Positions 9,747 to 22,194 of a stretch of 64,000 nucleotides of DNA are shown piece after piece. The DNA comes from Anaeromyxobacteraceae bacterium (GTDB taxonomy: Bacteria; Myxococcota; Myxococcia; Myxococcales; Anaeromyxobacteraceae): contig JASGHJ010000002.1 of the NCBI GenBank assembly GCA_047602405.1, positions 2,752,001 through 2,816,000 on the forward strand, given 5' to 3'. A program made the translations under genes and the position numbers. How positions within the stretch are numbered: position 1 is the first letter of the stretch; each line of letters begins with the position of its first letter. A model generated the notes under the pieces. It was not told where the DNA came from. It worked only from the letters and a program-made list of their open reading frames with translations, and ran no database searches.

Positions 9747-10720
9747 CGCTCTCTCCTGCGGAGGGTCTCGAGGTCGTCGTCCACCATCTCGGCGACGAGC
9801 CGCTCGAACGGCACGTCGTCGCGCCAGCCGAGCAGCGCGGCGGCGCGGGCGGGGTCGCCGACCAGGCCCGGGCGCGGGGGCCGCGGGATGGCCGGGTCCA
9901 CGACGACGTGCCGCCGCCAGTCGAGCCCGACGTGGGCGAAGGCGGCGGCGGCGAAGTCGCGGACGGTGTGGGCGGCGCCGGTCGCGAGGACGAGGTCCTC
10001 CGGGGCGTCGCGGCGGATCATGAGCGGCATGGCCCGGGCGAAGCTCCGGGCGTGGCCCCAGTCGCGGCGGGCGTCGAGGTCGCCGAGCGCGACCTCGCGG
10101 GCGAGGCCGAGCGCGACCCGGGCGGCGCCCGCGGAGATGGCCCGGGTCACGTACCCGGGCCCGCGGCGGGCGCTCTCGTGGTTGAAGAGGATCCCCGCGG
10201 CGGCGCGGAGGCCGCGCTCGCGGTAGTGGCGCACGATCCCCACCCCGGCCGCCTTCGCGATGGCGTACACGGAGCGCGGGTCGAGCGGGGTCCGCTCGTC
10301 GCAGGGCGAGGGCGCGTCGGGGGCGAACAGCTCGCTCGAGGCGGCGAAGAAGAAGCCCGCCCGGGGGCGGGCGGCGTGGAGCGCCGAGGCGAGCGCGTGG
10401 GTGGTGCCGATGGCGCCCTCGAGGAGCGCCTCCCCGGCGGCGACCGAGTCGACGGGCTTGCGGGTCCCGGTGAGGTGGTAGAGCTCGTCGGGCGCGACCG
10501 CGGCGACGAGCGCGCGCACCGCGGCGCGGTCCTCGAGCTCCACCGGGTGGAGCACGAGGCGCGGGTCACCGCGGTGCCGCGCGAGGCGCGGGTGCGCCCC
10601 GGCGTCGGCCGGGGTCCCGCGGCGGACGGTGCCGTGGACCTCGACGCCCTCCTCGAGGAGGAGGTCGGCGAGGAACGAGCCGTCCTGGCCCGCGAGGCCG
10701 GTGACGAGCGCGCGCGGCAT
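9743..10720 (-). CDS. GDP-mannose 4,6-dehydratase / Rmd-like extended SDR
   Basis: ALVTGLAGQDGSFLA, AASSELF, YAIAK, ILFNHESARRG, LGDLDARRDWGHA. Confidence 0.85.
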   Translation of the reverse strand: MPRALVTGLAGQDGSFLADLLLEEGVEVHGTVRRGTPADAGAHPRLARHRGDPRLVLHPVELEDRAAVRALVAAVAPDELYHLTGTRKPVDSVAAGEALLEGAIGTTHALASALHAARPRAGFFFAASSELFAPDAPSPCDERTPLDPRSVYAIAKAAGVGIVRHYRERGLRAAAGILFNHESARRGPGYVTRAISAGAARVALGLAREVALGDLDARRDWGHARSFARAMPLMIRRDAPEDLVLATGAAHTVRDFAAAAFAHVGLDWRRHVVVDPAIPRPPRPGLVGDPARAAALLGWRDDVPFERLVAEMVDDDLETLRRRER

Positions 10721-10738
10721 CCCCCGAGCCCCGGCGCC

Positions 10739-12002
10739 CTAGGGCGCCTTCACGATCCGGATCTCGGGGAGCGGGAAGATCATCCCCGTCCCGTTCTCGA
10801 TCGTCTTCTTCTCCCGCTCCAGGAACTCCTCCTGGAAGTGCCAGGGGAGCACGAGGAAGTAGTCGGGCTTCAGGCCGCGGCTCTCCTCCTCGGAGACGAT
10901 CGGGATGTCGGTGCCGATGGTGCGCGCGCCGTACTTGTCGGGGTTGCGCTCGGCGGCCATGTCGATGAGCCGGCTGTCGATGCCGCACCACTGCAGGATG
11001 GTGTTGCCCTTCGTGGACGCGCCGTAGATGTGGATGCGCTTGCCGTCCTTCTTGAGCCCCTTGAGGAGCGCGTTCAGCTTGTCCTTGTGGACGTTGATGC
11101 GGTCCTGGAAGTGCCGGTACGGCTTGTCGGTGTCGAGCTCGAGAATCGAACTCGTCCTGGCGCATCTTCGAGATCTCCTGCGCCCACTCGGCCTTGCGGT
11201 ACTTGAGGCAGGTGTTGCGCGCGGCGTAGACGCGGAGGCTGCCGCCGTTGATGTCGTTCGTCGACACCCGCACGGCCTTGAGGCCGGCGCGGCCGAGGAT
11301 CTTCTCGATGACCGAGAGCGAGTAGTACTCGAGGTGCTCGTGGCAGATCGTGTCGTAGCTGTTCATCTGCAGCATGAACGGCATGTAGCTCATCTCGAGG
11401 ATCCACACGCCGTCGGCCGCCAGCACCTCGCGGATGTTCTTCGCGAAGTCGACCGGCGACTCGAGGTCGTAGAACATCGCGATGGAGGTCACGATGTCGA
11501 CCTTCCGCTCGCCGAGGAGCTGGGTCAGCTCGGGCGACGGGAACAGGTCCTTCACCACGGTGATGCCGTCCTTCACCTCGCTCGCGACGTCGGACGGGTC
11601 GATGCCGAACTTCTCGACCCGGTTCGAGTAGGCGCGGAGCAGGGTGCCGTCGTTGCAGCCGATGTCGAGCGCGGTGACCGCGTTGCGGTTCACCATCGCC
11701 TCGGCCTCCTCGGCGATCCGCTTCAGGTGGTTTCGCATCGTGGCGTTCGTGCCCGAGCGGTACCAGTAGGCGCTGTAGAGCACCTCGGGCGGCACCGAGT
11801 GCTCCATCTGCAGGAGGCCGCAGGCGTGCTCGTCCTGGGTCGGGTCGCAGCGCGAGAGCGTGCACGGGATCTTCCGGAGCGGCGGCTCCTCCTTGCCGGG
11901 CTTCAGGAACGAGCCCTGGAGGTACTGCTCGCCGAGGTCGATGACCGGCTTCAGCGCGGTCGAGCCGCACACGCGGCAGGTCTTGCGGTGGATGAGGTGC
12001 AT
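10739..12002 (-). CDS. NDP-hexose C-methyltransferase (zinc-binding N-terminus); +1 frameshift at ~11145
   Basis: CRVCGS, YWYRSG, LDIGCNDGTLL, YDTICHEHLEYYS, INGGSLR. After the shift IHIYGASTKGNTILQWCGI and PDYFLVLPWHF. GGAGG RBS before ATG 12002. Confidence 0.88.
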
Positions 12003-12062
12003 GTTCGCGTTGCCTCCGAAGGTCGCCCCGCCGCGGCCGCGGGCCGGGTCGGGTCCACCTTG

Positions 12063-12078
12063 AGCAACGGCTGTGCCT
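12063..12078 (-). promoter_or_regulatory. Putative sigma54 (-24/-12) promoter of the glycan operon
   Basis: Minus strand AGGCACAGCCGTTGCT matches TGGCACG-N4-TTGCW with GG-N10-GC spacing, ~60 nt upstream of ATG 12002. Confidence 0.6.
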
Positions 12079-12242
12079 CCCGGCGAGAGCGCACCCAAGT
12101 GACCGAAACCACGGCACAATCGGGCGTCACCCCGCTGACGGGACGGCGGCGCCGCCAGAACCGTGACGGGCGAGCGCCAGCCATTTGCCCCGGCGGCGGG
12201 GCGAGGCGAGACTCGGCTCCGTCCTTCAGCCGGAGGCGCGCC

Positions 12243-12885: not shown

Positions 12886-15800
12886 ATGACGAACCAGGGG
12901 ACCTGGCTCAGGGCGGCCGTGTTGCTCGGCTTCCTCGCCGCGTGCAACCGGCAGCCCGCGCAGCAGCGCGAGGTGAAGCCGCCGAACGACAACACCGCGC
13001 TCGCCGAGGAGCGCCGCAAGCCCGAGGGCGCGCTCGAGGCGGAGATCGAGCCGCGGGGCGAGGAGGAGAAGGGCGACTTCGACGCCGACGATCCCGGCTA
13101 CCGCCTCGACTGGGAGCGCGCGGCCTGGGGCTCCTCGTCCTCCGAGTTCCGCTCCAACCTGCTCCGCCTCGGCGCCGAGTACGCGAGGAAGAAGTACCTC
13201 TCGGGCCCGCGCTGGGTGAACGTCGGCCCGACCGGCTCCCGCTACGAGCAGAACGGCTCCTTCACCGGCCAGGTGCGCGACTCCGGCCGCATGCGCACAA
13301 TCCTCCCTCACCCGTTCCTGTCCGACGTCGTCTACGTCCTCACCTCCGGCGGCGGCCTGTGGGTGACCACGAACTGGGGCTCCTCGAACACCCGCTGGAC
13401 GGTCCTCACCGACGACCTCCCGACGACCGGCGGCGGCGCGGTCGCGTTCGGCAAGTACCCGACCACGCTGTACCTCGGCCTCGGCGACCCTTACGACCAG
13501 ATCACGGTCGGCGGCGCGATGGTGCGGTCGACCACCGCCGGCCTGTCCTGGTCCGCCCCGGTGGAGCTCGGCGCGGCGGTCTCGGTGCGCGACGTGAAGG
13601 TCGACACGAGCGGCAGGACCGACGTCGTCCTCGCCGCGACCGACGTCGGCCTCTACCGCTCCGCGGACGGCGGGGCGACCTACGCCTCGGTCCCCGCGCT
13701 CGACGGGCAGTCGGTCTGGAGCATCCAGAAGACGAGCGCGGGCTGGCTCGTCTCCGCCCAGCCCTGCCCGGTCGGCTTCGGCGGCCTGCAGTGCCCGTCC
13801 CCCACGACGCTCTGGCTCTCCACCGACAGGGGCGCCACCTTCGCGCCGGTCGCCAACACCGGCGGCGGCTTCGCGAACGCCGGCCGCACGACCCTCGCCG
13901 CGGCGAACCCCGGTGAGGCGGTCGTGTACGCGTACTCCTCCACGGTCGGCGACGCGCAGATGCTGGACGTGTTCCGCTCGAACGACGGCGGCCAGACCTG
14001 GCTCGGCACCGGCACGAACTCGACCAAGCTCCCGACGAACCCGGTCGCGGGAAGCCAGCCGAACATGAACATCTGCGGGGCCCAGTGCTGGTACGACCAG
14101 ATGATCGTGGTCGACCCGCGCGACGCCGCGCGCGGGACGCTCTGGATCGGCGGCAACCTCGCCTCCGCGCAGTCGAAGGACGGCGGCGCCACCTGGACGC
14201 TCAAGAGCTGGTGGCTCTACGAGCAGGTGCCCTCGCTGCCGTACGCCCACGCCGACTTCCACGCGGCCGCGTTCAAGACGACCGGCACGCCGACCCTCAT
14301 CCTGGGCAACGACGGCGGCATGAACACCACCACCGACGACGGCGCGACCTTCTCGTCGGACAAGAACAACGGCCTCGCGACGCACCTCTACTACACGGTC
14401 ACCGGCAACCCGAAGCTGCCGAACGCGATCCTGGGCGGCCTGCAGGACAACGGCACGCGCCTGCGCTCCGACAACGGCACGATCCACGACCAGGTGATCG
14501 GCGGCGACGGCATGGGCGCGGCCTGGAGCCAGGACAACACCAACACCGTCATCGGCTCCTCGCAGGGCTCGTCGATGCGGACGAACCAGTCGAACAACGT
14601 CCCCGACCGGTTCCAGAACTGGGCCGCGGCGACGTCCGGCCTCTCCGACGTCGGCTTCGGCTTCTTCACCTCCATCACCCCCGCGCCCGCGGGCCTCGAC
14701 CCCACCGGCAAGGTCTTCTTCCACTTCTCGAACGCGCGCGTGTGGCGCTCGAACAACGGCGGCCTCACCTGGACCCGCATCGGCTCGGCCATCGCGCCGA
14801 CGTCGCCGGGCCTGCCCACGGCCCGCCGCTTCCGCTCGAGCCCCTACAACCTCGGGGTGTCGCCCACCGACCTCAACCGCATCGCGGTCGGCGCCGGCGG
14901 CGGCTTCCTCGACGTCACCACCGACGGCGGGGCGACCTGGACCGACCTCAACCTCGTCGCGCTCGCGCCCGGCTACCAGGGCTTCGTGACGAACGTGACC
15001 TGGCAGGACAACCAGCACCTGTGGGTCACGTCGGTGGCGCAGGCCGCGGGGGCGGTGCGCGTCCTGAAGGGCACCCTCGCCAACCCGACCGACTCCTGGT
15101 CGACCGCGACCTGGACGGCGATGACGACGGGCCTGCCGGACCTGCCGGTCACGCGGATCCTCTTCGACCCGCGCGACGCGACCCGGAAGACGATCTACGC
15201 GGCCACCCACGTCGGCGTGTACGCCTCGAAGGACGGCGGCGCGACCTGGGCGCTCTTCGGCACCGGCCTGCCCGCGGTCCGCGTGAACGACATCTACATG
15301 CCGCCCGACGGCGGGTCGATGCGCATCGCGACCTACGGCCGCGGCGTGTGGGAGCTCCCGCAGGTCGAGTTCGTCTCGGCGGTCTTCTCCGACGGCGGCG
15401 AGGACGAGGACGACTGCGACAACGATCACGACCGCGTCCTCGACAACGGCGAGCGCGGCCACCTCGCGATCAAGGTGCAGAACCAGGGGTACAACCCGCT
15501 CAAGACGGTGAAGATCACCGTCACGTCGTCGAACCCGCACGTCACCTTCCCGAGGGGCAACGTGGTCACCATCTCCCCGCTCTACGGCGGCGACGACCGC
15601 ACGCGGTACGTGAAGGTGGCGCTCGCGGGCGCGACGGGCGTCGAGACCGTCGACTACACGATCCGGATCGAGGCCGACGCGATCCTGCCTGGCGGCTACA
15701 CGGTCACCTCCACCCAGCGCGTGAACTACGACGAGGTGCAGAACGCCTCGGCGACCGACACGTTCGACGCGAAGGTCTCGCCCTGGGTCGCCTCCGGCGG

Positions 15801-16377
15801 CGCGACGACGATGCCCAACATCGCGGCGTGGCAGGTCCGGGCGCTCTCGCCCACCCGGAACGTCATCTGGGGGCCGGACAACAACGGCCAGACCGACGGC
15901 GTCCGTCCGGACGGCCCGGACGAGCAGAGCCTCACCTCGCCCGTGCTGAAGGTGGGCACCGACCCGCTCGTCCTCTCGTTCACGCACCGGTACGCGTTCG
16001 AGAACGGCGGCTGGGACGGCGGCGTGATCGAGATCTCGAACGACGGCGGCGCGACCTGGGCCCCCCTGCCGGGCGTGCCCTACACCGGCGCGACCAACAC
16101 GGTCACCTCGGCGCCGATCGGCGTCAGCCGCCCTGCCTTCGTGAACCGCCCGGCCACCTGGCCGGCGTTCACGAACGTCACCGTCGACGCCGGCACCGCG
16201 TACGCGGGCCAGGACGTGAAGATCCGGTTCCGCGTCGGCGCGGACGAGTCGACGGGCGCGCCGGGCTGGGAGATCGGTGACGTCGCCATCGGCGGCCTCA
16301 CCAACACGCCGTTCCCGGCGCTCGTCCCGGACGCGTCCCTCCGGTCCAGGACCGGCAACACCGTGGCCCAGAAGTGA
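12886..16377 (+). CDS. Large secreted lipoprotein with BNR/Asp-box beta-propellers (sortilin/GH74-like) and C-terminal beta-sandwich domains
   Basis: Lipobox FLAAC; many S.DGG.TW Asp-box repeats; ATYGRGVW; C-terminal ENGGWDGGVIEISNDGG; GAGGAG RBS. Confidence 0.85.
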   Translation: MTNQGTWLRAAVLLGFLAACNRQPAQQREVKPPNDNTALAEERRKPEGALEAEIEPRGEEEKGDFDADDPGYRLDWERAAWGSSSSEFRSNLLRLGAEYARKKYLSGPRWVNVGPTGSRYEQNGSFTGQVRDSGRMRTILPHPFLSDVVYVLTSGGGLWVTTNWGSSNTRWTVLTDDLPTTGGGAVAFGKYPTTLYLGLGDPYDQITVGGAMVRSTTAGLSWSAPVELGAAVSVRDVKVDTSGRTDVVLAATDVGLYRSADGGATYASVPALDGQSVWSIQKTSAGWLVSAQPCPVGFGGLQCPSPTTLWLSTDRGATFAPVANTGGGFANAGRTTLAAANPGEAVVYAYSSTVGDAQMLDVFRSNDGGQTWLGTGTNSTKLPTNPVAGSQPNMNICGAQCWYDQMIVVDPRDAARGTLWIGGNLASAQSKDGGATWTLKSWWLYEQVPSLPYAHADFHAAAFKTTGTPTLILGNDGGMNTTTDDGATFSSDKNNGLATHLYYTVTGNPKLPNAILGGLQDNGTRLRSDNGTIHDQVIGGDGMGAAWSQDNTNTVIGSSQGSSMRTNQSNNVPDRFQNWAAATSGLSDVGFGFFTSITPAPAGLDPTGKVFFHFSNARVWRSNNGGLTWTRIGSAIAPTSPGLPTARRFRSSPYNLGVSPTDLNRIAVGAGGGFLDVTTDGGATWTDLNLVALAPGYQGFVTNVTWQDNQHLWVTSVAQAAGAVRVLKGTLANPTDSWSTATWTAMTTGLPDLPVTRILFDPRDATRKTIYAATHVGVYASKDGGATWALFGTGLPAVRVNDIYMPPDGGSMRIATYGRGVWELPQVEFVSAVFSDGGEDEDDCDNDHDRVLDNGERGHLAIKVQNQGYNPLKTVKITVTSSNPHVTFPRGNVVTISPLYGGDDRTRYVKVALAGATGVETVDYTIRIEADAILPGGYTVTSTQRVNYDEVQNASATDTFDAKVSPWVASGGATTMPNIAAWQVRALSPTRNVIWGPDNNGQTDGVRPDGPDEQSLTSPVLKVGTDPLVLSFTHRYAFENGGWDGGVIEISNDGGATWAPLPGVPYTGATNTVTSAPIGVSRPAFVNRPATWPAFTNVTVDAGTAYAGQDVKIRFRVGADESTGAPGWEIGDVAIGGLTNTPFPALVPDASLRSRTGNTVAQK

Positions 16378-16385
16378 CCTGAAGG

Positions 16386-16418
16386 CCGGAGGGGTTCCGC
16401 TCCGCGGGACCCCTCCGG
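16386..16418 (+). terminator. Stem-loop downstream of the BNR lipoprotein gene
   Basis: CCGGAGGGGTTCCGC-TCC-GCGGGACCCCTCCGG, 15-bp stem; no strong U-tract. Confidence 0.5.
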
Positions 16419-16475
16419 TACAATCCGCTTCGACTTTCCGTGCAGCCATAACCCTGCCCACACGAGGTTCTCCCC

Positions 16476-17108
16476 GTGCTCGTCATCGCTTTCGTGGCAT
16501 CGCTCGTGCTCGCCGGAACCGACCACAGCGGCCTCGTCATCGAGGCGCCGTCGGTCCCCGAGAACCGCACCGTCGCCGTCGACAGCGGCGGCGGCATCGA
16601 GGCCGGTGAGGCGACGGGCTACCTCTCCGGCCGCTGGCAGGTCACGAACCGCCTCGCGCTGACCGCGGGCGTCTCCTACCTCAGGGGCGAGGCCGGCCCG
16701 AACGCGGGCCTGCGCCTGAAGCTCGTGGACGGCCTCACCGCGGGCGTCCGCCTCAAGTCCGAGGGCTTCGAGCCCGAGGGCGCCGAGGTCGAGGCCTCGA
16801 TGATCGGCGGCCTCTCCCTGGGCAAGCTGGACCTCATGGGCTCCGCCACCGTCGGCTACGGCGAGGAGACCGTGGACGTCGAGGGCGCCGCCGCCGCGCG
16901 GACGACGTTCTCGCGGATCTTCGATCTCGGCGTCGAGGGCCGGTACCGCGGGGCGACGAACGGCACGAAGCACGACCTGGTGGCCGGCCCGGCCTTCGGC
17001 GTCACCTTCGCGGGCGGCACCGTGCGCGTCCAGGCGCTCGCGGGCTACGCCTCGAACGAGAAGGACCGGGGCGTGGCCGCGTTCCTCGGGCTCGCGGTCT
17101 ACAACTAG
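16476..17108 (+). CDS. Putative outer-membrane beta-barrel protein
   Basis: Hydrophobic N-terminus, alternating amphipathic strands, C-terminal FLGLAVYN; host codon bias. Confidence 0.65.
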   Translation: MLVIAFVASLVLAGTDHSGLVIEAPSVPENRTVAVDSGGGIEAGEATGYLSGRWQVTNRLALTAGVSYLRGEAGPNAGLRLKLVDGLTAGVRLKSEGFEPEGAEVEASMIGGLSLGKLDLMGSATVGYGEETVDVEGAAAARTTFSRIFDLGVEGRYRGATNGTKHDLVAGPAFGVTFAGGTVRVQALAGYASNEKDRGVAAFLGLAVYN

Positions 17109-17160
17109 CCTCCCGCGGCACCCACAGCCGTCGGCCGCGGTCTCCGGATCGGCGGCCGAT

Positions 17161-17710
17161 GTCGTTCACCCCTGCCAGCGTTTCAGTAGGCGGCCGCCTC
17201 TCCGCGCCTCTCCGCTCCTCGGGCCCCAAGGCAAAGGCCCGCCGCGGAGGGGATCCTGGAGACGTGTCCGAACGGATGGAGACCCGCGGCACGTCCACGC
17301 ATGCCAGCCGAGAGAGACGTCGCCGTTGCGGTCACGTCGCCGCTCGGCTGTCATGCTCCGTGCAAATCGCGGCTCCGTCGTCGGGCGGGCCAGCCGGGGG
17401 CCCTGCGGGGCAGAGAGGCCCTGCGAGGCGGCCGCCGAGGATAGGTTGGGATGGGCGAACGACCGCGGAGGCGAACGGAGTTGCGAGCCGGGTGCGCTCC
17501 CTCAAGCAGGATCGATCGTGGAGGACGCCTCGGTCGGGCGGTGCCTCTTCGGCGCCCTGCTCAGACCACGTGTGAAACTCTGCGTAGAGGAGTCGACGAC
17601 GCCCGCCTGCGTCCCTGCAGGGACATCATCGATGAATGACCTCACGGATTCCGGGTTCACCCGGAGGAAGGTCCGGCTGCCGGTCCGAGAGAGGAGCGCC
17701 CCCTCGGACT
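17161..17710 (+). ncRNA. Candidate large structured non-coding RNA (unassigned family)
   Basis: No credible ORF. Nested long-range helices (17161-67/17457-63; 17189-200/17425-36), a seven-helix rod 17266-17386, further hairpins to 17709; G-U wobbles favour the + strand. Confidence 0.5.
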
Positions 17711-17720
17711 CGCCCGCCGC

Positions 17721-18650
17721 CTACGGCGCCCTCGCAGTGAGCTCGAACCGGATCGGCACCGCGGCGGGGCCGCCGGCGGCGGTGACGCCGGCGAGGGCCT
17801 TCTGCACGCAGGTCGCGAGCGCGGCGTCGCCGACGGAGTCGCCGGAGAGCTTCGGGGCGGCGCTGCCGGCCCCGGTGACCTCCGCGACCAGCACGCCGTC
17901 GAGCGACGGCGCCCGCTTGAGCGCGTCCGCGTAGCACGCGCCGAGGGCGTCCTGGCGGGCGGCGATGGCCTTGCGCGCGGCCGCGGGGCCCGACAGCGGC
18001 TCGCCGACCGTCACCCTCGCCTGCGCGCCGCGCGCGGCCGACAGCGCGGTCCGGTCCGCGCCGGCGGCGCCGCCGAGCGCCAGCACCTCCTCGCCTGCGC
18101 GCCAGCGCCAGGAGACGGGCTCGACCGCGAGGGTGCGCGGGCGGCCGCGGGAGCAGGTGGCGTCGTCCGGCAGGTCGAACACGAGCTCGAGCGCGAGCTC
18201 GCCCTTCCGCTGGAGCTCGAAGAGCCGCTTCGCCGTGGCGAGGTCGGCCTCCACCGGCAGCCCCGCCTCGGTCGCGCAGTAGAGCCGCGCGCCGCCGAAC
18301 CCGAGCAAAACGGCGTCCTGCAGGGCGAGGCGCCCCTCCCCGCGCGCGTACGGGCCGAAGAAGAGCTTCCCGGCCGGGATCGTCACCCGGTACCGCGCGA
18401 CGGTCGCGAGGTCGCGACGCTCCTCCTGGGTGTCCTCGGCGGTGGCCCGGTCGAGGGCGTCGCCCTTCGTGCGGAGGCGCTCCGCGGGCTCGAGGGCCTG
18501 GCAGAGGGTCTCGAGCTCGGCGGGGCCGGCGACCTCGATCGGGACCACGTCGGGCACGCCGGTGGCGGCGACGGCCGGCCCGGGGGCGGCGAGGCCCGGG
18601 GTGGGGGTGGCGGCGGCGAGGAGGGCGAGGAGCGCGGTGGTGGCGACCAT
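17721..18650 (-). CDS. Secreted hypothetical protein with C-terminal AgmX/PglI (TonB-C-like) domain
   Basis: Signal MVATTALLALLAAA; C-terminal ALGACYADALKRAPSLDG...DAALATCVQKAL...VPIRF; GGAGG RBS. Confidence 0.65.
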   Translation of the reverse strand: MVATTALLALLAAATPTPGLAAPGPAVAATGVPDVVPIEVAGPAELETLCQALEPAERLRTKGDALDRATAEDTQEERRDLATVARYRVTIPAGKLFFGPYARGEGRLALQDAVLLGFGGARLYCATEAGLPVEADLATAKRLFELQRKGELALELVFDLPDDATCSRGRPRTLAVEPVSWRWRAGEEVLALGGAAGADRTALSAARGAQARVTVGEPLSGPAAARKAIAARQDALGACYADALKRAPSLDGVLVAEVTGAGSAAPKLSGDSVGDAALATCVQKALAGVTAAGGPAAVPIRFELTARAP

Positions 18651-18661
18651 GCCTCCGGATC

Positions 18662-19588
18662 CTACCCACTCCCGAGCCGGATCTTGAGGGCCTTCGGGAG
18701 GAGGTCGAACCGCGCCGGCGCCCGCCCCGGGTGCTCGCCGTCCACGTCGAGGAGCGCCTCGGCGTCCCCGACGGGCTCGATCTCGACGGTGCGCCCGTGG
18801 AACACCCGGGTGTTGGGCAGCTTCACGTGGGTGCCGTCGTAGAGGGTGCTCCGCTTCGTGACGAGGTCCACGAGCCCGAAGCCCTTCCACACCACGACGT
18901 CGAAGAGCCCGTCGTCCATGCGGGCGTCCGGCGCGACCTTCATGCCGCCGCCGAAGTACCGGCCGTTGCAGACGGACAGCGCCGTGACGCCCTCCTCGTG
19001 CCACTCGCCGCCGTCGATCCGCCAGCGCACCCTCGGGTCCGACCACCCGATGAGCGCGCCCGCCGAGGCGAGCATGTAGGAGAGCGGGCCGGTGAACTTG
19101 AGGCCGTCGATGCGCGACGAGACCGCCCCGGAGATGCCGCAGCCCGCGACGTTCGCGAAGTGGCGCAGGTGCGAGGTGCCGTCGTGCGCGCGGAACGCCA
19201 CCCGGCCGAGGTCGGCGACCACCGTGCGCTCGCCGGCGAGCGCGCGGGCCGCCTCGTGGAGGTTCTCCGCGAGGCCGAGCGTGCGGCGAAAATCGCCGCC
19301 GGTGCCGCGCGGGATGAAGCCGAAGGTGGAGTCGGGGTCGCGCAGCCGGCCCTCGTCGAGGAGGCCGTCGATGACCTCGCTCGCGGTGCCGTCGCCGCCC
19401 ACCGCGACCACGAACTTGCCGCCCGCCGCGAGCGCCTCCTGGGCGAGGCGCTTGCCGTCGCCGCGCGCCTTCGTGAAGGCGCACTCGAACTCGCCCACGG
19501 CGGAGCGCACGGCGCTCGCGATCTTGTCGAAGTGACGCCCCGTGCGGCCGGAGGCGCTCTCGGGGTTCACGATGAGCCAGGGCTTCAT
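18662..19588 (-). CDS. Diacylglycerol kinase family lipid kinase (YegS/DgkB-like)
   Basis: IVNPESASG, VGGDGTASEV, IPRGTGGDF, NGRYFGGGM, VDGE. Confidence 0.92.
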   Translation of the reverse strand: MKPWLIVNPESASGRTGRHFDKIASAVRSAVGEFECAFTKARGDGKRLAQEALAAGGKFVVAVGGDGTASEVIDGLLDEGRLRDPDSTFGFIPRGTGGDFRRTLGLAENLHEAARALAGERTVVADLGRVAFRAHDGTSHLRHFANVAGCGISGAVSSRIDGLKFTGPLSYMLASAGALIGWSDPRVRWRIDGGEWHEEGVTALSVCNGRYFGGGMKVAPDARMDDGLFDVVVWKGFGLVDLVTKRSTLYDGTHVKLPNTRVFHGRTVEIEPVGDAEALLDVDGEHPGRAPARFDLLPKALKIRLGSG

Positions 19589-19625
19589 GCGTCCCCGTGG
19601 CTTACCACGCTCGGAGTTCGCCCGC

Positions 19626-19679
19626 TCATCCGGAGCGCAGGTTCCGCGACCGGAGGTCGGCGGGACCGGAGTCGAGGGA
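19626..19679 (-). repeat. Palindromic REP-like element, copy 1 (supplies the C-terminus and stop of the ferredoxin gene)
   Basis: TCCCTCGACTCCG-hairpin-TGCGCTCCGGATGA; same ends as copies at 36540 and 42871. Confidence 0.7.
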
Positions 19680-20087
19680 GGCCATGGCGCGCAGCGTCGT
19701 GACGACGCGCGCGATGGGGACCTGGGTGGGGCAGAGCGCGTCGCAGCCGGCGCAGCCCGCGCACGCGTCGAGCGCCTCCTTCGCGGCGGGGAGGTCGGCG
19801 AGGTTGCGGGAGTAGAGCCGGAACGCCGCGTGGAGCCCCAGCGCGCGCACCGCGGGGTCCGCGGCGGCGAGCGCGCAGCCCGCCTCGCAGAGCCCGCACG
19901 AGATGCAGGCCGCGGCCGCCTGCGCGGCCTCCCGGTCGGCGGCGCTCGTCGGGCGGAGGCCGTCCTCGCCGGCGTACTGGGCGAGGAAGCGCGCCTCGCC
20001 GGTGCCGCGGTGCTGGAAGAGCTTCTTCAGCGGGTGCGCGACGAGCGCGCGCCAGGCGAGGTAGGCGAGGGCGGCGGGGCGGGCCAT
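19626..20087 (-). CDS. 2x[4Fe-4S] dicluster protein (GlpC N-terminal-like)
   Basis: CISCGLCEAGC and CAGCAGCDALCPTQVP motifs; downstream of glpAB. Confidence 0.8.
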   Translation of the reverse strand: MARPAALAYLAWRALVAHPLKKLFQHRGTGEARFLAQYAGEDGLRPTSAADREAAQAAAACISCGLCEAGCALAAADPAVRALGLHAAFRLYSRNLADLPAAKEALDACAGCAGCDALCPTQVPIARVVTTLRAMASLDSGPADLRSRNLRSG

Positions 20088-20089
20088 CG

Positions 20090-20878
20090 TCAGGCGTCCT
20101 CCTTCGCGTCCGGGCGAGGGCGCCGCGGCGGCGGGGACGCCGCGAGCACCCGCTCGGCGCGGGCGCGGGCCGCGGGGGTGTAGGCCGCCGGGTGACGGCG
20201 CACGAGCAGCGCCCGGAGCGAGGCGTCGTGGGCGAGGGCGGCGTTGCTGCGCGCCCCGCCCGCCCCGCCCTTCACGCGGTAGAAGGCGAGCGGCTCCGCG
20301 ACGTGCACCGCCCGCACCCCGCGCTCGGCGCAGGAGAGCCAGAAGTCCCAGTCCTCGTAGCCCGCCGTGAAGTCGTCCGAGAAGCCGCCCACCTCCTCCC
20401 AGAGCCGGCGGCGGAAGAGCGAGGTCACGACCAGCCGGTTCCGCTCGGCGAGGCTCGCGAGGTCGAACGGCCCCATGAGCGCGCGCCGCGCGGCGCCGCC
20501 GTCCTCGAAGAGGAGCACGTCGGTGAAGGCGACGCCCGCGCCGGGGTCGCGGTCGAGGGCGGCGACCGTCTTCTCGAGGAAGGTCCCGTGCAGGAGATCG
20601 TCCGCGTCGAGGGGCAGGACGAGCTCGCCCGAGGCCGCGGCGATGCCCGCGTCGAGCGCGCCCGGGGGCCCGCGGTTCTCCTGCTCCACGAGCCGCAAGG
20701 CCTTGCCCGGGTGCGCGGCGGCGAGGGCGCGGAACGCGCCGGAGGTGTCGTCCGGGCTGCCGTCGTTCACGACGACGCACTCCCAGTCGGGATACGTCTG
20801 CCGCACGACCGAGCCCACCGCCAGCGGCAGGAGCGCGGCGTGGCCGTAGCAGCGGACGACGACCGAGACGCGCGGCAC
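20090..20878 (-). CDS. Glycosyltransferase family 2
   Basis: VSVVVRCY, VVNDGSPDDT, LPLDADD, YEDWDFWL. Confidence 0.9.
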   Translation of the reverse strand: MPRVSVVVRCYGHAALLPLAVGSVVRQTYPDWECVVVNDGSPDDTSGAFRALAAAHPGKALRLVEQENRGPPGALDAGIAAASGELVLPLDADDLLHGTFLEKTVAALDRDPGAGVAFTDVLLFEDGGAARRALMGPFDLASLAERNRLVVTSLFRRRLWEEVGGFSDDFTAGYEDWDFWLSCAERGVRAVHVAEPLAFYRVKGGAGGARSNAALAHDASLRALLVRRHPAAYTPAARARAERVLAASPPPRRPRPDAKEDA

Positions 20879-20880
20879 GC

Positions 20881-22194
20881 TCAGGTCCCCTCCCCGCGCG
20901 CGGCGGCCGCGGCGGCCTTGCCCGCGAGGAAGCCGGTGAGGAGCGCGACGCCGAGGCCGGTGCCGTCGGTCGCCTGCTCGTGGCCGCCGAGCACGGCGCC
21001 CGCCGCGAAGAGCCGCGGGTGCACGGGGCGGCCCTGCCCGTCGAGGGGCCGGAGCCGCGCGTCGGCGCGGAGCCCGGCCGAGAGGAGCGGCTGCGGCGCG
21101 CGGCGGTCGCGCAGCGTGAGCGGCTGCGCCGGGCGGTCGGCGAGGTGGACCCCGGCCTCGCGGCCCTCCGCCGCCTGCACCGGGAGCCCCAGCGCGGGCT
21201 CGACCAGCCGTCCCCGCCGCGCGATGCCGCCGCCCACGAACCGGCCGGTGGCGAGGACCCACGCGCGCGCCTCGAGCGTGGCGCCCGCGACGGCGAGCGG
21301 CGCGTCGGGCGTCGTCCCGGCGGCGCTCCCGGTCACGACCTCGACGCCCGCGGCGGCGAGGCGGGCCTCGAGGGCCGCCTGCAGCCGGAGCCCGGGCACG
21401 CTCGGGACGTCCGAGAGCGTCTCCGCGACCGGCAGGCCCGCCGCGCGGGCGACCCGCTCGTGGACCGCGCCGCCAGGCTCGAGCCCCTGCAGCTGGAGAC
21501 CCAGCACCGGCGGGAGGAGCGCCACGGCGGTGCCCGGCGGCAGGGCCGCGCGGAGCCGCTCCCCGAGCGCCTCGGCCGCGCCGGGCGCGTCGAGGGCGCG
21601 GGCGAGCTCGTGCGGGCGCGCCGCCTCGAGCCCGGCCCCGGGGAGGTCCACCTCGAGGGAGCGCACCTCCGGGCCGCCCCGGGCCCGGTAGCGGGCGAGC
21701 CCCGCCGCGACGAGCGCGGCGTCGAAGAGGAGGTGCCCGCGGAAGCCGACCACCGCGACCGGACCCCGCGCCGCGAGGAGGTCGCCCGCCTCCATCGTGC
21801 GCTGGCAGGTCGCCACGGCGGCGGCGGTGCCGAACGGCGTGGCCAGGAAGCGCGGCCGGTCGAGGGGCGGCGCGAGCACCGCCGCGAGCTCGCGGGCCGT
21901 GAACTCGAGGGCCTCCGGGAGGCGGTCGAGCCCGGCGCCGACCGCGGCGTACGGGTGGTCGGGGCGCTGCGCGGCGAGCCGGCGCGCGGCGTCGACCGGG
22001 CCCCGCCGCCACGAGAGCGGATTGCCGGGGGCGGCGGTGAGGTCGGGGGCGACGCCGATCGCGCCGGAGGAGAGCGCGGTCGCGCCCGGGGAGCGGCGCA
22101 CGAGCACCGCCGAGGCGCCCGCCTCGCGCGCGGCGAGCGCGGCGATGGCCCCGGCGAGGCCGCCCCCGACGACGAGGACGTCCGCGCGCTTCAC
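20881..22194 (-). CDS. glpB: Anaerobic glycerol-3-phosphate dehydrogenase subunit B-like FAD protein
   Basis: DVLVVGGGLAG, GATALSSG, PSVPGLRL, LATGRFVGGGI, FAAGAVLGG, GTGLGVALLTG; GTGA overlap with glpA. Confidence 0.85.
   Translation of the reverse strand: MKRADVLVVGGGLAGAIAALAAREAGASAVLVRRSPGATALSSGAIGVAPDLTAAPGNPLSWRRGPVDAARRLAAQRPDHPYAAVGAGLDRLPEALEFTARELAAVLAPPLDRPRFLATPFGTAAAVATCQRTMEAGDLLAARGPVAVVGFRGHLLFDAALVAAGLARYRARGGPEVRSLEVDLPGAGLEAARPHELARALDAPGAAEALGERLRAALPPGTAVALLPPVLGLQLQGLEPGGAVHERVARAAGLPVAETLSDVPSVPGLRLQAALEARLAAAGVEVVTGSAAGTTPDAPLAVAGATLEARAWVLATGRFVGGGIARRGRLVEPALGLPVQAAEGREAGVHLADRPAQPLTLRDRRAPQPLLSAGLRADARLRPLDGQGRPVHPRLFAAGAVLGGHEQATDGTGLGVALLTGFLAGKAAAAAARGEGT

What the first reader, a model, noticed from the sequence alone, without database searches (positions are those of the whole stretch)
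17161..17710. Candidate large (~550 nt) structured ncRNA of no family I recognise
Seen: the gap between two convergent genes has no protein-like ORF but is densely paired. Outer helix GTCGTTC 17161/GAACGAC 17457. Perfect 12-bp helix 17189-200/17425-36 closing a multibranch junction. A ~120-nt rod of seven stacked helices (17266-71/17381-86, 17275-81/17373-79, 17284-88/17368-72, 17289-93/17359-63, 17299-303/17352-56, 17305-12/17343-50, 17316-20/17334-38). A second branched domain 17505-61, palindromes at 17611-24 and 17626-35, hairpins to 17709. G-U pairs consistently favour the + strand. I could not find the hallmark motifs of tmRNA, RNase P, SRP or group I/II introns. Inference: an undescribed large RNA, or a non-autonomous mobile element.
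Basis: partly seen in the sequence, partly recalled or inferred. Interest (0 to 1): 0.8.

Follow-up and report, generated by a model that had tools for sequence, protein, structure and literature searches.

The report
Mobile hairpin hiding split sigma54 promoter
This stretch is not one large RNA but a patchwork insert that close relatives lack, and its main part is one of about 20 scattered copies of a 300-base hairpin repeat; the repeat is likely mobile DNA, and its inner stem would form a sigma54-type promoter only when the DNA is single-stranded, which is untested.

Summary
The listed helices are real, but only 17161-17463 folds beyond chance (z -8.3; 17464-17710 z -0.9). That part is one of 20 full-length copies, at 14 loci, of a ~300-nt hairpin family ('A'). 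13 of 14 loci lie between convergent genes and 7 hold facing pairs. 24 of 68 base pairs covary. The whole gap is missing in relative G010 and in contigs of 3 of 4 DNA runs. 17608-17677 is a copy of a second, unrelated repeat ('B'). No Rfam match. Core stems show no RNA-like G-U excess (33 G·T vs 28 A·C). In all 18 copies tested, the best two-arm match to this genome's sigma54 motif falls at the same place in the inner stem. The -24 GG is intact on one arm; the spacing is right only on the other (window copy p~0.007, copies not independent). Hairpins before four-helix-bundle-like genes share this design. Verdict: an undescribed mobile DNA hairpin, probably carrying a single-strand promoter. The mover was not found, and nothing was tested for transcription.

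The parts
16476..17108 (+). Left flanking gene (210 aa, no Pfam or NCBIfam family); host gene, not part of the element
   Evidence: 91% nucleotide identity to G010
17110..17739 (.). Segment absent in relatives. There the two genes abut with stop codons overlapping in CTAG. The segment also supplies the last codons and stop of the right-hand gene.
   Evidence: G010 empty site; joint 17109->17740 with 5 other letters between in 3 of 4 DNA runs
17161..17463 (+). Family A copy (short 'b' subtype): ~300-nt imperfect hairpin made of a decayed outermost stem, a long outer stem, a variable internal loop, an inner stem and a variable apex
   Evidence: 62-86% identical to the 17 other aligned G000 copies
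17289..17307 (-). 5' arm of inner stem. Read on the - strand it carries an intact -24-like box (TGGCATG), but the spacer to the -12-like box is 3 nt too long (loop 17294-98 opposite 17357-58).
   Evidence: sequence
17348..17364 (+). 3' arm of inner stem: sigma54-like site with correct spacing but T for the -24 G (T17351, mispaired with C17304). -12-like GC at 17362-63, followed by the unpaired bulge 17364-67. Start would be near 17375 (inferred).
   Evidence: two-arm score 14.6 bits vs median 14.7 for motif sites, ladder-shuffle p~0.007
17464..17604 (.). Unique, unstructured segment; possibly decayed passenger DNA
   Evidence: no other genomic copy; z +0.7 / +1.8; no protein relative
17608..17677 (+).
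17721..18650 (-). Right flanking gene (309 aa, weak AgmX/PglI C-terminal domain match); host gene

Best explanation
17161-17463 is one copy of a ~300-nt, gene-less hairpin repeat present at some sites and absent at the same sites in close relatives; it is likely a non-autonomous mobile DNA element, and its inner stem would act as a sigma54-type promoter only when the template strand is single-stranded and folded. Shown: copy number, convergent sites, filled and empty alleles, covarying stems, and the two-arm motif with a conserved mismatch and a conserved 3-nt offset. Inferred mechanism: in double-stranded DNA neither arm is a complete promoter, because one lacks the -24 G and the other has a spacer 3 nt too long. 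On the folded - strand the GG-bearing arm becomes the non-template strand, the extra 3 nt loop out, and polymerase would start near the internal loop and read out of the element's 3' end. That would prime second-strand synthesis or transcribe passenger genes, as Frpo does for sigma70. Facing a+b pairs give one such hairpin whichever strand is exposed. The mover is unknown. My guess is one of the genome's Y1/HUH (RAYT/TIRYT-like) enzymes acting in trans on single-stranded DNA. The rest of the finding is a second repeat (B) and unstructured filler.
For: Mobility: 20 full copies, 2 3'-half copies and 2 internally deleted minis at 14 loci. 4 of 4 G000 loci looked up in G010 are empty (window, 2589k, 278k, 1207k). 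Copies in L107 (G010) and L060 lie at sites empty in G000. Contig L061 has one of the two copies at the 123.7-124.4k locus. The empty window allele is in 3 of 4 DNA runs, from three studies. 13 of 14 loci are convergent against 811 of 4891 junctions genome-wide by crude gene calls. Structure: 94.7% of cells paired, 24 of 68 pairs with double changes, 0/500 shuffles as high, slid controls 38-49%. DNA rather than RNA: core mismatches G·T 33, A·C 28. Promoter: the genome has 17 exact TGGCAYG-N5-TGCW hits, read by eye as upstream of genes, and an RpoN-box protein. The best two-arm match falls on the same register, apex to base, in 18 of 18 copies. The CC on the 5' arm is present in 18 of 18 while its partner has one G broken in 15 of 18, and the 5' arm is 3 nt longer between the boxes in all three subtypes with different letters. 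The inner duplex is more stable on the - (template) strand in 17 of 18, one tie. Hairpins upstream of RBS plus a ~107-114 aa four-helix-bundle-like ORF, in G000 and five other genomes of the genus, keep the same C·T mismatch in 9 of 9 aligned copies with a covarying spacer, fold better on the template strand in 10 of 10, and occur in G000 as 4 facing pairs. Wild-type sigma54 prefers GG; GA and GT are preferred by R456 mutants (PMC12096077, passages). Co-oriented foreign ORFs or remnants follow A copies at 279k, 1057k and, less clearly, C1:1564k.
Against: No mover found. None of the 6 G000 and 10 G010 Y1 loci scanned has A or B in its flanks, and the 5 further G000 Y1 loci are not near A copies. 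No target duplication, terminal motif or clean junction. Filled versus empty does not by itself separate insertion from deletion, and 9 of 14 loci were not compared. a and b partners show no tree congruence (Mantel rho -0.12, p 0.59, 6 pairs), so pairs need not move as units. Promoter: p is 0.003-0.23 across copies and above 0.05 in 7 of 18; copies are related, so this is roughly one observation. 7 of 18 have C for T in the -12 box, and 3 of 18 have the GG restored on the 3' arm. The matrix is noisy (118 forward vs 49 reverse hits) and was seeded on TGC. The whole element is more stable on the + strand in 13 of 18 with DNA energies, and the - strand edge of the inner duplex partly reflects mismatch energies. 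The four-helix hairpin profile does not detect A copies at E<=50, so common ancestry is not shown. Most A copies point at no gene. Sigma54 needs an activator: the open-complex structure used a bypass mutant together with a pre-formed bubble (PMC7057263, passage). The idea came from an unchecked earlier AI note.
Confidence: 0.5

Rival explanations
1. An oversized REP/TIR-type selfish palindrome with no promoter function. The sigma54-like motif is chance or a dead relic, and the unpaired bases are a transposase recognition site.
For: Same mobility and covariation data. REP dimers are often heterodimers, and some TIR families are self-complementary and closely paired (PMC3733652, passages). 8 of 9 pairs combine an a and a b subtype. 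7 of 18 copies have an off-consensus -12 box. Most copies point at no gene.
Against: Variation in the inner stem follows the sigma54 degeneracy (Y-GG-C-A/G-Y-R ... Y-GC-A; pair tables). The same C·T mismatch recurs in the four-helix hairpins that sit directly before genes. No RAYT/TIRYT is flanked by A. No GTAG or CGTC end tag is conserved.
Confidence: 0.3
2. A multicopy structured RNA made by read-through from the upstream genes (3' UTR stabiliser or buffer at convergent ends), or a 6S-like decoy of sigma54 polymerase.
For: Copies start within about 10-190 nt of a stop codon, co-oriented with that gene. RNA-energy folding is strong (z -3.9 to -11.2 on +). The outermost stem has a G·T excess on + (64 vs 12). 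The closing stem / bubble / terminal stem layout recalls 6S (recalled).
Against: No Rfam match in 11 regions scanned. Core stems lack a G-U excess. Both strands fold about equally. Sites are not conserved between genomes 91-98% identical in the flanks. Co-orientation is automatic at a convergent junction.
Confidence: 0.13
3. A retroposed RNA element copied in trans by the genome's group II intron-type reverse transcriptase.
For: 7 equally scoring 484-aa RT frames in G000. Two 3'-half copies and short tandem duplications at junctions. No target duplication.
Against: 5'-half and 3'-truncated copies also exist in G010. No A similarity near the two RT loci scanned. No G-U excess in the core.
Confidence: 0.07

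Closest known systems
Frpo / ssi single-stranded DNA promoters of F and ColIb-P9 (PMC9849209 and PMC11541004, passages read; Masai and Arai 1997 seen only as a citation there)
   Same: A long non-coding hairpin that would rebuild a promoter only in single-stranded DNA of the template strand and be silent in duplex. Frpo also primes replication, per the cited title.
   Different: Frpo rebuilds sigma70 -35/-10 boxes in plasmid leading regions before genes. Family A carries a sigma54-like -24/-12 motif, is chromosomal, dispersed and mostly gene-less, occurs as facing pairs, and has no demonstrated activity.
REP dimers / REPINs / BIMEs and TIRtron TIR families (PMC3733652 passages; PMC6006769 one passage; REPIN papers as search listing only)
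   Same: Non-coding, self-complementary, intergenic, lineage-restricted, often inverted heterodimers, no target duplication seen.
   Different: The unit is ~300 nt rather than 20-40. No conserved GTAG/CGTC tag. No cognate RAYT/TIRYT flanked by the repeat. Conserved internal mismatches and bulges match a promoter motif.
MITEs (definition recalled; search listing only)
   Same: Short, gene-less, multicopy, internally deleted derivatives exist.
   Different: Ends differ from copy to copy and no target duplication was found; the self-complementarity runs through the whole element.
6S RNA (Rfam RF00013)
   Same: Rod with a central loop between a closing and a terminal stem (recalled).
   Different: No match. 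20 copies at variable sites. Promoter-like letters lie in the stem.
Integron attC sites (features recalled)
   Same: Imperfect hairpin with conserved unpaired bases. At 278-279k a foreign gene lies between a full and a half copy in direct orientation.
   Different: Much longer, inverted pairs instead of arrays, and no integron integrase over the cut-off in G000.

Membership tests
   17464-17710 z -0.9 / -0.1; homologues cover only about 17170-17455 or 17608-17677
   no RNA holder listed
Any Rfam family incl. 6S, SRP, RNase P, tmRNA, introns | Covariance-model match | tested here: not met
   0 hits at E<=1 in 14000-21000; none over A copies in 10 loci; tmRNA lies elsewhere, C2:816k; RF00013 finds nothing in G000
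Frpo/ssi-like single-strand promoter | Long hairpin that completes promoter boxes incomplete in duplex | tested here: met
   computational only, for a sigma54-like motif:
Frpo/ssi-like single-strand promoter | Folds preferentially on the template strand | tested here: inconclusive
   inner duplex favours - in 17 of 18, whole element favours + in 13 of 18
Frpo/ssi-like single-strand promoter | sigma70 -35/-10 boxes; location in a conjugative leading region; sequence similarity to plasmid elements | tested here: not met
   no sigma70-like site in the duplex (a two-arm sigma70 site was not tested); flanks are host genes; no match in plasmids or, for another copy, phages
Frpo/ssi-like single-strand promoter | RNA synthesis from folded ssDNA | not testable with these tools
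   needs in vitro transcription
REP/REPIN/TIRtron | Multicopy intergenic palindrome, inverted dimers, presence/absence between relatives | tested here: met
REP/REPIN/TIRtron | 20-40 nt unit with GTAG or CGTC tag | tested here: not met
   ~300 nt, tag not conserved
REP/REPIN/TIRtron | Cognate Y1 transposase gene flanked by the repeat | tested here: not met
   16 Y1 loci scanned, none flanked; 5 more G000 loci not near copies; only two genomes examined
MITE | Conserved terminal inverted repeats and target-site duplication | tested here: not met
   filled/empty junctions at 6 sites show none; 2-9% flank divergence could hide a short duplication
attC / integron cassette | Integron integrase and direct-repeat array | tested here: not met
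   TIGR02249 best 84 bits vs cut-off 265; copies mostly inverted

The most novel reading that the evidence does not exclude
Family A is a promoter-only selfish element: a gene-less DNA hairpin pair that is excised as single-stranded DNA and recruits sigma54 RNA polymerase as its primase through a promoter that exists only in the folded strand. One hairpin serves each strand, and the built-in unpaired bases after the -12 box ease or bypass melting. On the way it picks up and expresses foreign genes.
Probability: 0.2. Interest if true: 0.85.

Novelty: new variant of a known kind. Interest (0 to 1): 0.55.

Why it matters
The single-strand promoters in the papers I read are sigma70-type and sit in conjugative leading regions. 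Three searches combining sigma54 or single-strand promoter terms listed no paper that, by title or abstract start, describes a sigma54 version. A sigma54 version on a dispersed chromosomal repeat would show that such switches can travel as independent modules. It also gives a small, natural substrate to ask whether sigma54 polymerase can start on folded DNA and whether it still needs an activator. Even if the promoter reading fails, this is a repeat family about ten times the size of a REP with an unknown mover, and it warns that multicopy covarying hairpins are easily mistaken for ncRNAs.

Tried and rejected
One 550-nt RNA: rejected. Rfam, 6S and tmRNA: none. Expression: no RNA holder listed; this is no evidence either way. 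Wider homologues: the core 30-mer with up to 3 mismatches is in 2 of 363 genomes of the order (G000, G010). An exact degenerate pattern gave 1 record in genome contigs, 1 in metagenome contigs and 0 in viral contigs. No plasmid or phage match. The profile search across the genus gave no answer twice, so diverged relatives remain unsearched. Movers: Y1 genes, 2 RT loci, 2 IS110 loci and 1 GIY-YIG locus carry no A or B in their flanks; no integron integrase. Lagging-strand bias: a/b orientation alternates between neighbouring loci, so not pursued. GGGGWSAS TIR motif near the 3' end: 4 of 21 copies only, rejected as a conserved end. Pairs moving as units: not supported. Homology of A to the four-helix hairpins: not detected either way. 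The loose split-motif pattern over 92 genomes was mostly chance matches and served only to find the four-helix hairpins. Passenger at 278k: orphan TPR-like protein, 1 other homologue. A second read-laying, on the 2589k pair, returned no data, so that site rests on G010 alone. One search timed out and was rerun with faster settings.

Full report
OBSERVATION. The gap lies between a + gene ending at 17108 and a - gene ending at 17721. Split by region, only 17161-17463 beats shuffles (z -8.3 / -6.8); 17464-17710 does not (z -0.9 / -0.1). Rfam gives nothing at E<=1.

WHAT IT IS: TWO REPEATS AND FILLER. The window is G000:C2:2752001-2816000, in a 6.16-Mb, 74% GC genome. A public record carrying a family copy is titled Anaeromyxobacter sp. 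(L060), which is my basis for the genus. A profile of 17161-17463 finds 20 full-length copies and 2 3'-half copies; two internally deleted minis were seen by eye. They occupy 14 loci: 7 facing pairs of full copies (six with 45-107 nt between, one with a foreign gene between), 2 pairs with a mini partner, and 5 singles including the window. Two clades, a long 'a' and a short 'b', separate with support 1.0, and 8 of 9 pairs are a+b. Pairwise identity is 58-92%. By crude gene of 14 loci are convergent, against 811 of 4891 junctions; the fourteenth has a short uncalled - ORF ending at the copy. 17608-17677 belongs to a different ~65-nt family B, with about 15 strong hits, two subtypes, and copies in frame inside an HNH-type gene. 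17464-17604 is unique and unstructured.

MOBILITY. In G010 (91% identical flanks) the two genes abut with overlapping stops. The same empty joint, 17109 to 17740, is in 3 of 4 DNA runs laid. Three more G000 loci looked up in G010 are also empty: 4 of 4, with 9 loci not compared and one (after tsf) occupied in both. Conversely, copies in L107 (G010) and L060 sit at sites empty in G000. Contig L061 carries only the a copy of the 123.7-124.4k pair. At 1207k both genes keep their C-termini in the overlapped empty state, which suggests insertion rather than loss (inference). Junctions are untidy: no target duplication, variable 3' ends, frequent short tandem repeats. The family is narrow: 2 of 363 genomes of the order, plus one record each.

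STRUCTURE. I aligned 18 of the 20 G000 copies (C1:1564k and C2:1057k left out) plus one G010 copy. The consensus rod has 68 pairs, 24 with double changes, 94.7% of cells paired; 0 of 500 shuffles reach this and slid partners give 38-49%. The measure 'further pair types' did not exceed shuffles (299/500), and the structure was derived from these sequences. A wobble-blind arm-to-arm alignment gives G·T 33 and A·C 28 in the core stems, and 64 vs 12 only in the decayed outermost stem. That reads as a DNA hairpin that can form on either strand, not as a typical RNA (inference; counts are not independent).

THE INNER STEM. The genome has 17 exact TGGCAYG-N5-TGCW hits at the canonical distance; a second peak at N3 (19 hits) looks by eye mostly like W-H-x-C codons in genes. 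An RpoN-box protein is present (motif recalled). A matrix from 113 upstream sites (noisy: 118 forward vs 49 reverse hits) scores the A 3' arm below the 11-bit cut-off in duplex form (window 7.0 bits). Taking the better letter of the two arms at each paired position, the best register in 18 of 18 copies is the same and points from apex to base. The window copy scores 14.6 bits (median motif site 14.7; shuffled ladders 4.9; p~0.007); the range is p 0.003-0.23, above 0.05 in 7 copies. Across copies the 5' arm keeps CC in 18 of 18, while the 3' arm has T (11) or A (3) at -24, T at -25 (1), or GG (3). Between the boxes the 5' arm is 3 nt longer in all three subtypes, with different letters. The inner duplex is more stable on the - strand in 17 of 18, but the whole element favours + in 13 of 18. 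Seven copies have C for T in the -12 box.

A PARALLEL CASE. They keep the same boxes and C·T mismatch in 9 of 9 aligned copies with a covarying spacer, have an internal loop where the start would lie, and fold better on the template strand in 10 of 10. Their profile does not detect A, so the shared design may be convergent. Published work shows that wild-type sigma54 prefers GG at -24 (PMC12096077, passages) and that Frpo hairpins rebuild sigma70 boxes in single-stranded DNA and drive leading genes (PMC9849209, PMC11541004, passages).

MECHANISM. Shown: repeat, mobility between relatives, covariation, motif geometry. Inferred: on the folded - strand the GG arm is non-template, the 3 nt loop out, and polymerase would start near 17375 and read out of the 3' end, priming the second strand or transcribing passengers. 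Co-oriented foreign ORFs follow copies at 279k (orphan TPR-like protein), 1057k (broken) and perhaps C1:1564k; most copies face no gene. A facing pair supplies one template-strand hairpin for either strand. Guessed: movement by a Y1/HUH enzyme in trans. G000 has 11 such loci but none is flanked by A, and pairs show no co-phylogeny. The activator requirement of sigma54 is an open difficulty (PMC7057263, passage). My odds: mobile DNA hairpin rather than one ncRNA about 0.85; functional or recently functional single-strand promoter about 0.5; Y1 mover about 0.35.

COMPARISON AND NOVELTY. It works like a REP/TIR dimer in distribution and, probably, like Frpo in function, but fails membership of both (see tests). 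Seven literature searches listed nothing describing this family or a sigma54 single-strand promoter, judged from titles and abstract starts. The library lacks most subscription papers, and I read six papers as passages only and no supplements; the repeat tables in the supplements of PMC3733652 and PMC6006769 could bear on whether such repeats were catalogued. Earlier AI notes of this scan already describe the same family at another locus (e1-9979641) and split sigma54 hairpins on ICEs; these are leads, not support.

VERDICT. Observation partly confirmed; not a 550-nt RNA; new variant of a known kind; interest 0.55.

Noticed in passing
G000 genome-wide, e.g. C2:3676051-3676992: A third, short REP-like family (CCGTTCRYCCYGAGCGTAG, inner hairpin, GGAGWCGAGGGRCG): 232 loose motif hits, not all real, including a 7-unit tandem array. 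Copies flank the GIY-YIG gene at C1:1892.9k and lie upstream of the Y1 gene at C2:1325.6k.
   Followed up: partly
G000 C1:163921 and C2:3208409: The head of that short REP runs straight into an identical foreign sequence next to IS110 transposases, suggesting an IS110 that targets the REP.
   Followed up: no
L042:2289-3665 (C1:1593.7-1595.1k) and C1:290.1-291.6k: Multicopy HNH-type gene (weak IscB match, far below cut-off); two copies carry family B in frame in a linker, others do not.
   Followed up: partly
G000 C1:316.5-317.5k, C1:2167.0-2168.1k, C2:7.6-8.6k, C2:3644.9-3645.9k: Four facing pairs of hairpins with the split sigma54-like motif; those read precede small four-helix-bundle-like genes.
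   Followed up: partly
L062-L068: Seven equally scoring 484-aa reverse transcriptase frames, likely a recently active group II intron.
   Followed up: no
L033, L034, L035 and G010 L096-L098, L100: A RAYT-like Y1 gene present in 3-4 near-identical copies with G-rich inverted ends; three sites share flanking genes between the two genomes.
   Followed up: partly
L019:1475-2180 (C2:1207.8-1208.5k): The b copy shares both arms of one stem segment with its a neighbour, suggesting conversion between partners or stem swapping.
   Followed up: no
window 10566-12119: A methyltransferase-like reading frame appears frameshifted near 11070: the C-terminal part continues as ORF 10739-10960 in another frame.
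   Followed up: no
G000 whole genome: Rfam's 6S model finds no match in this 98% complete genome.
   Followed up: no
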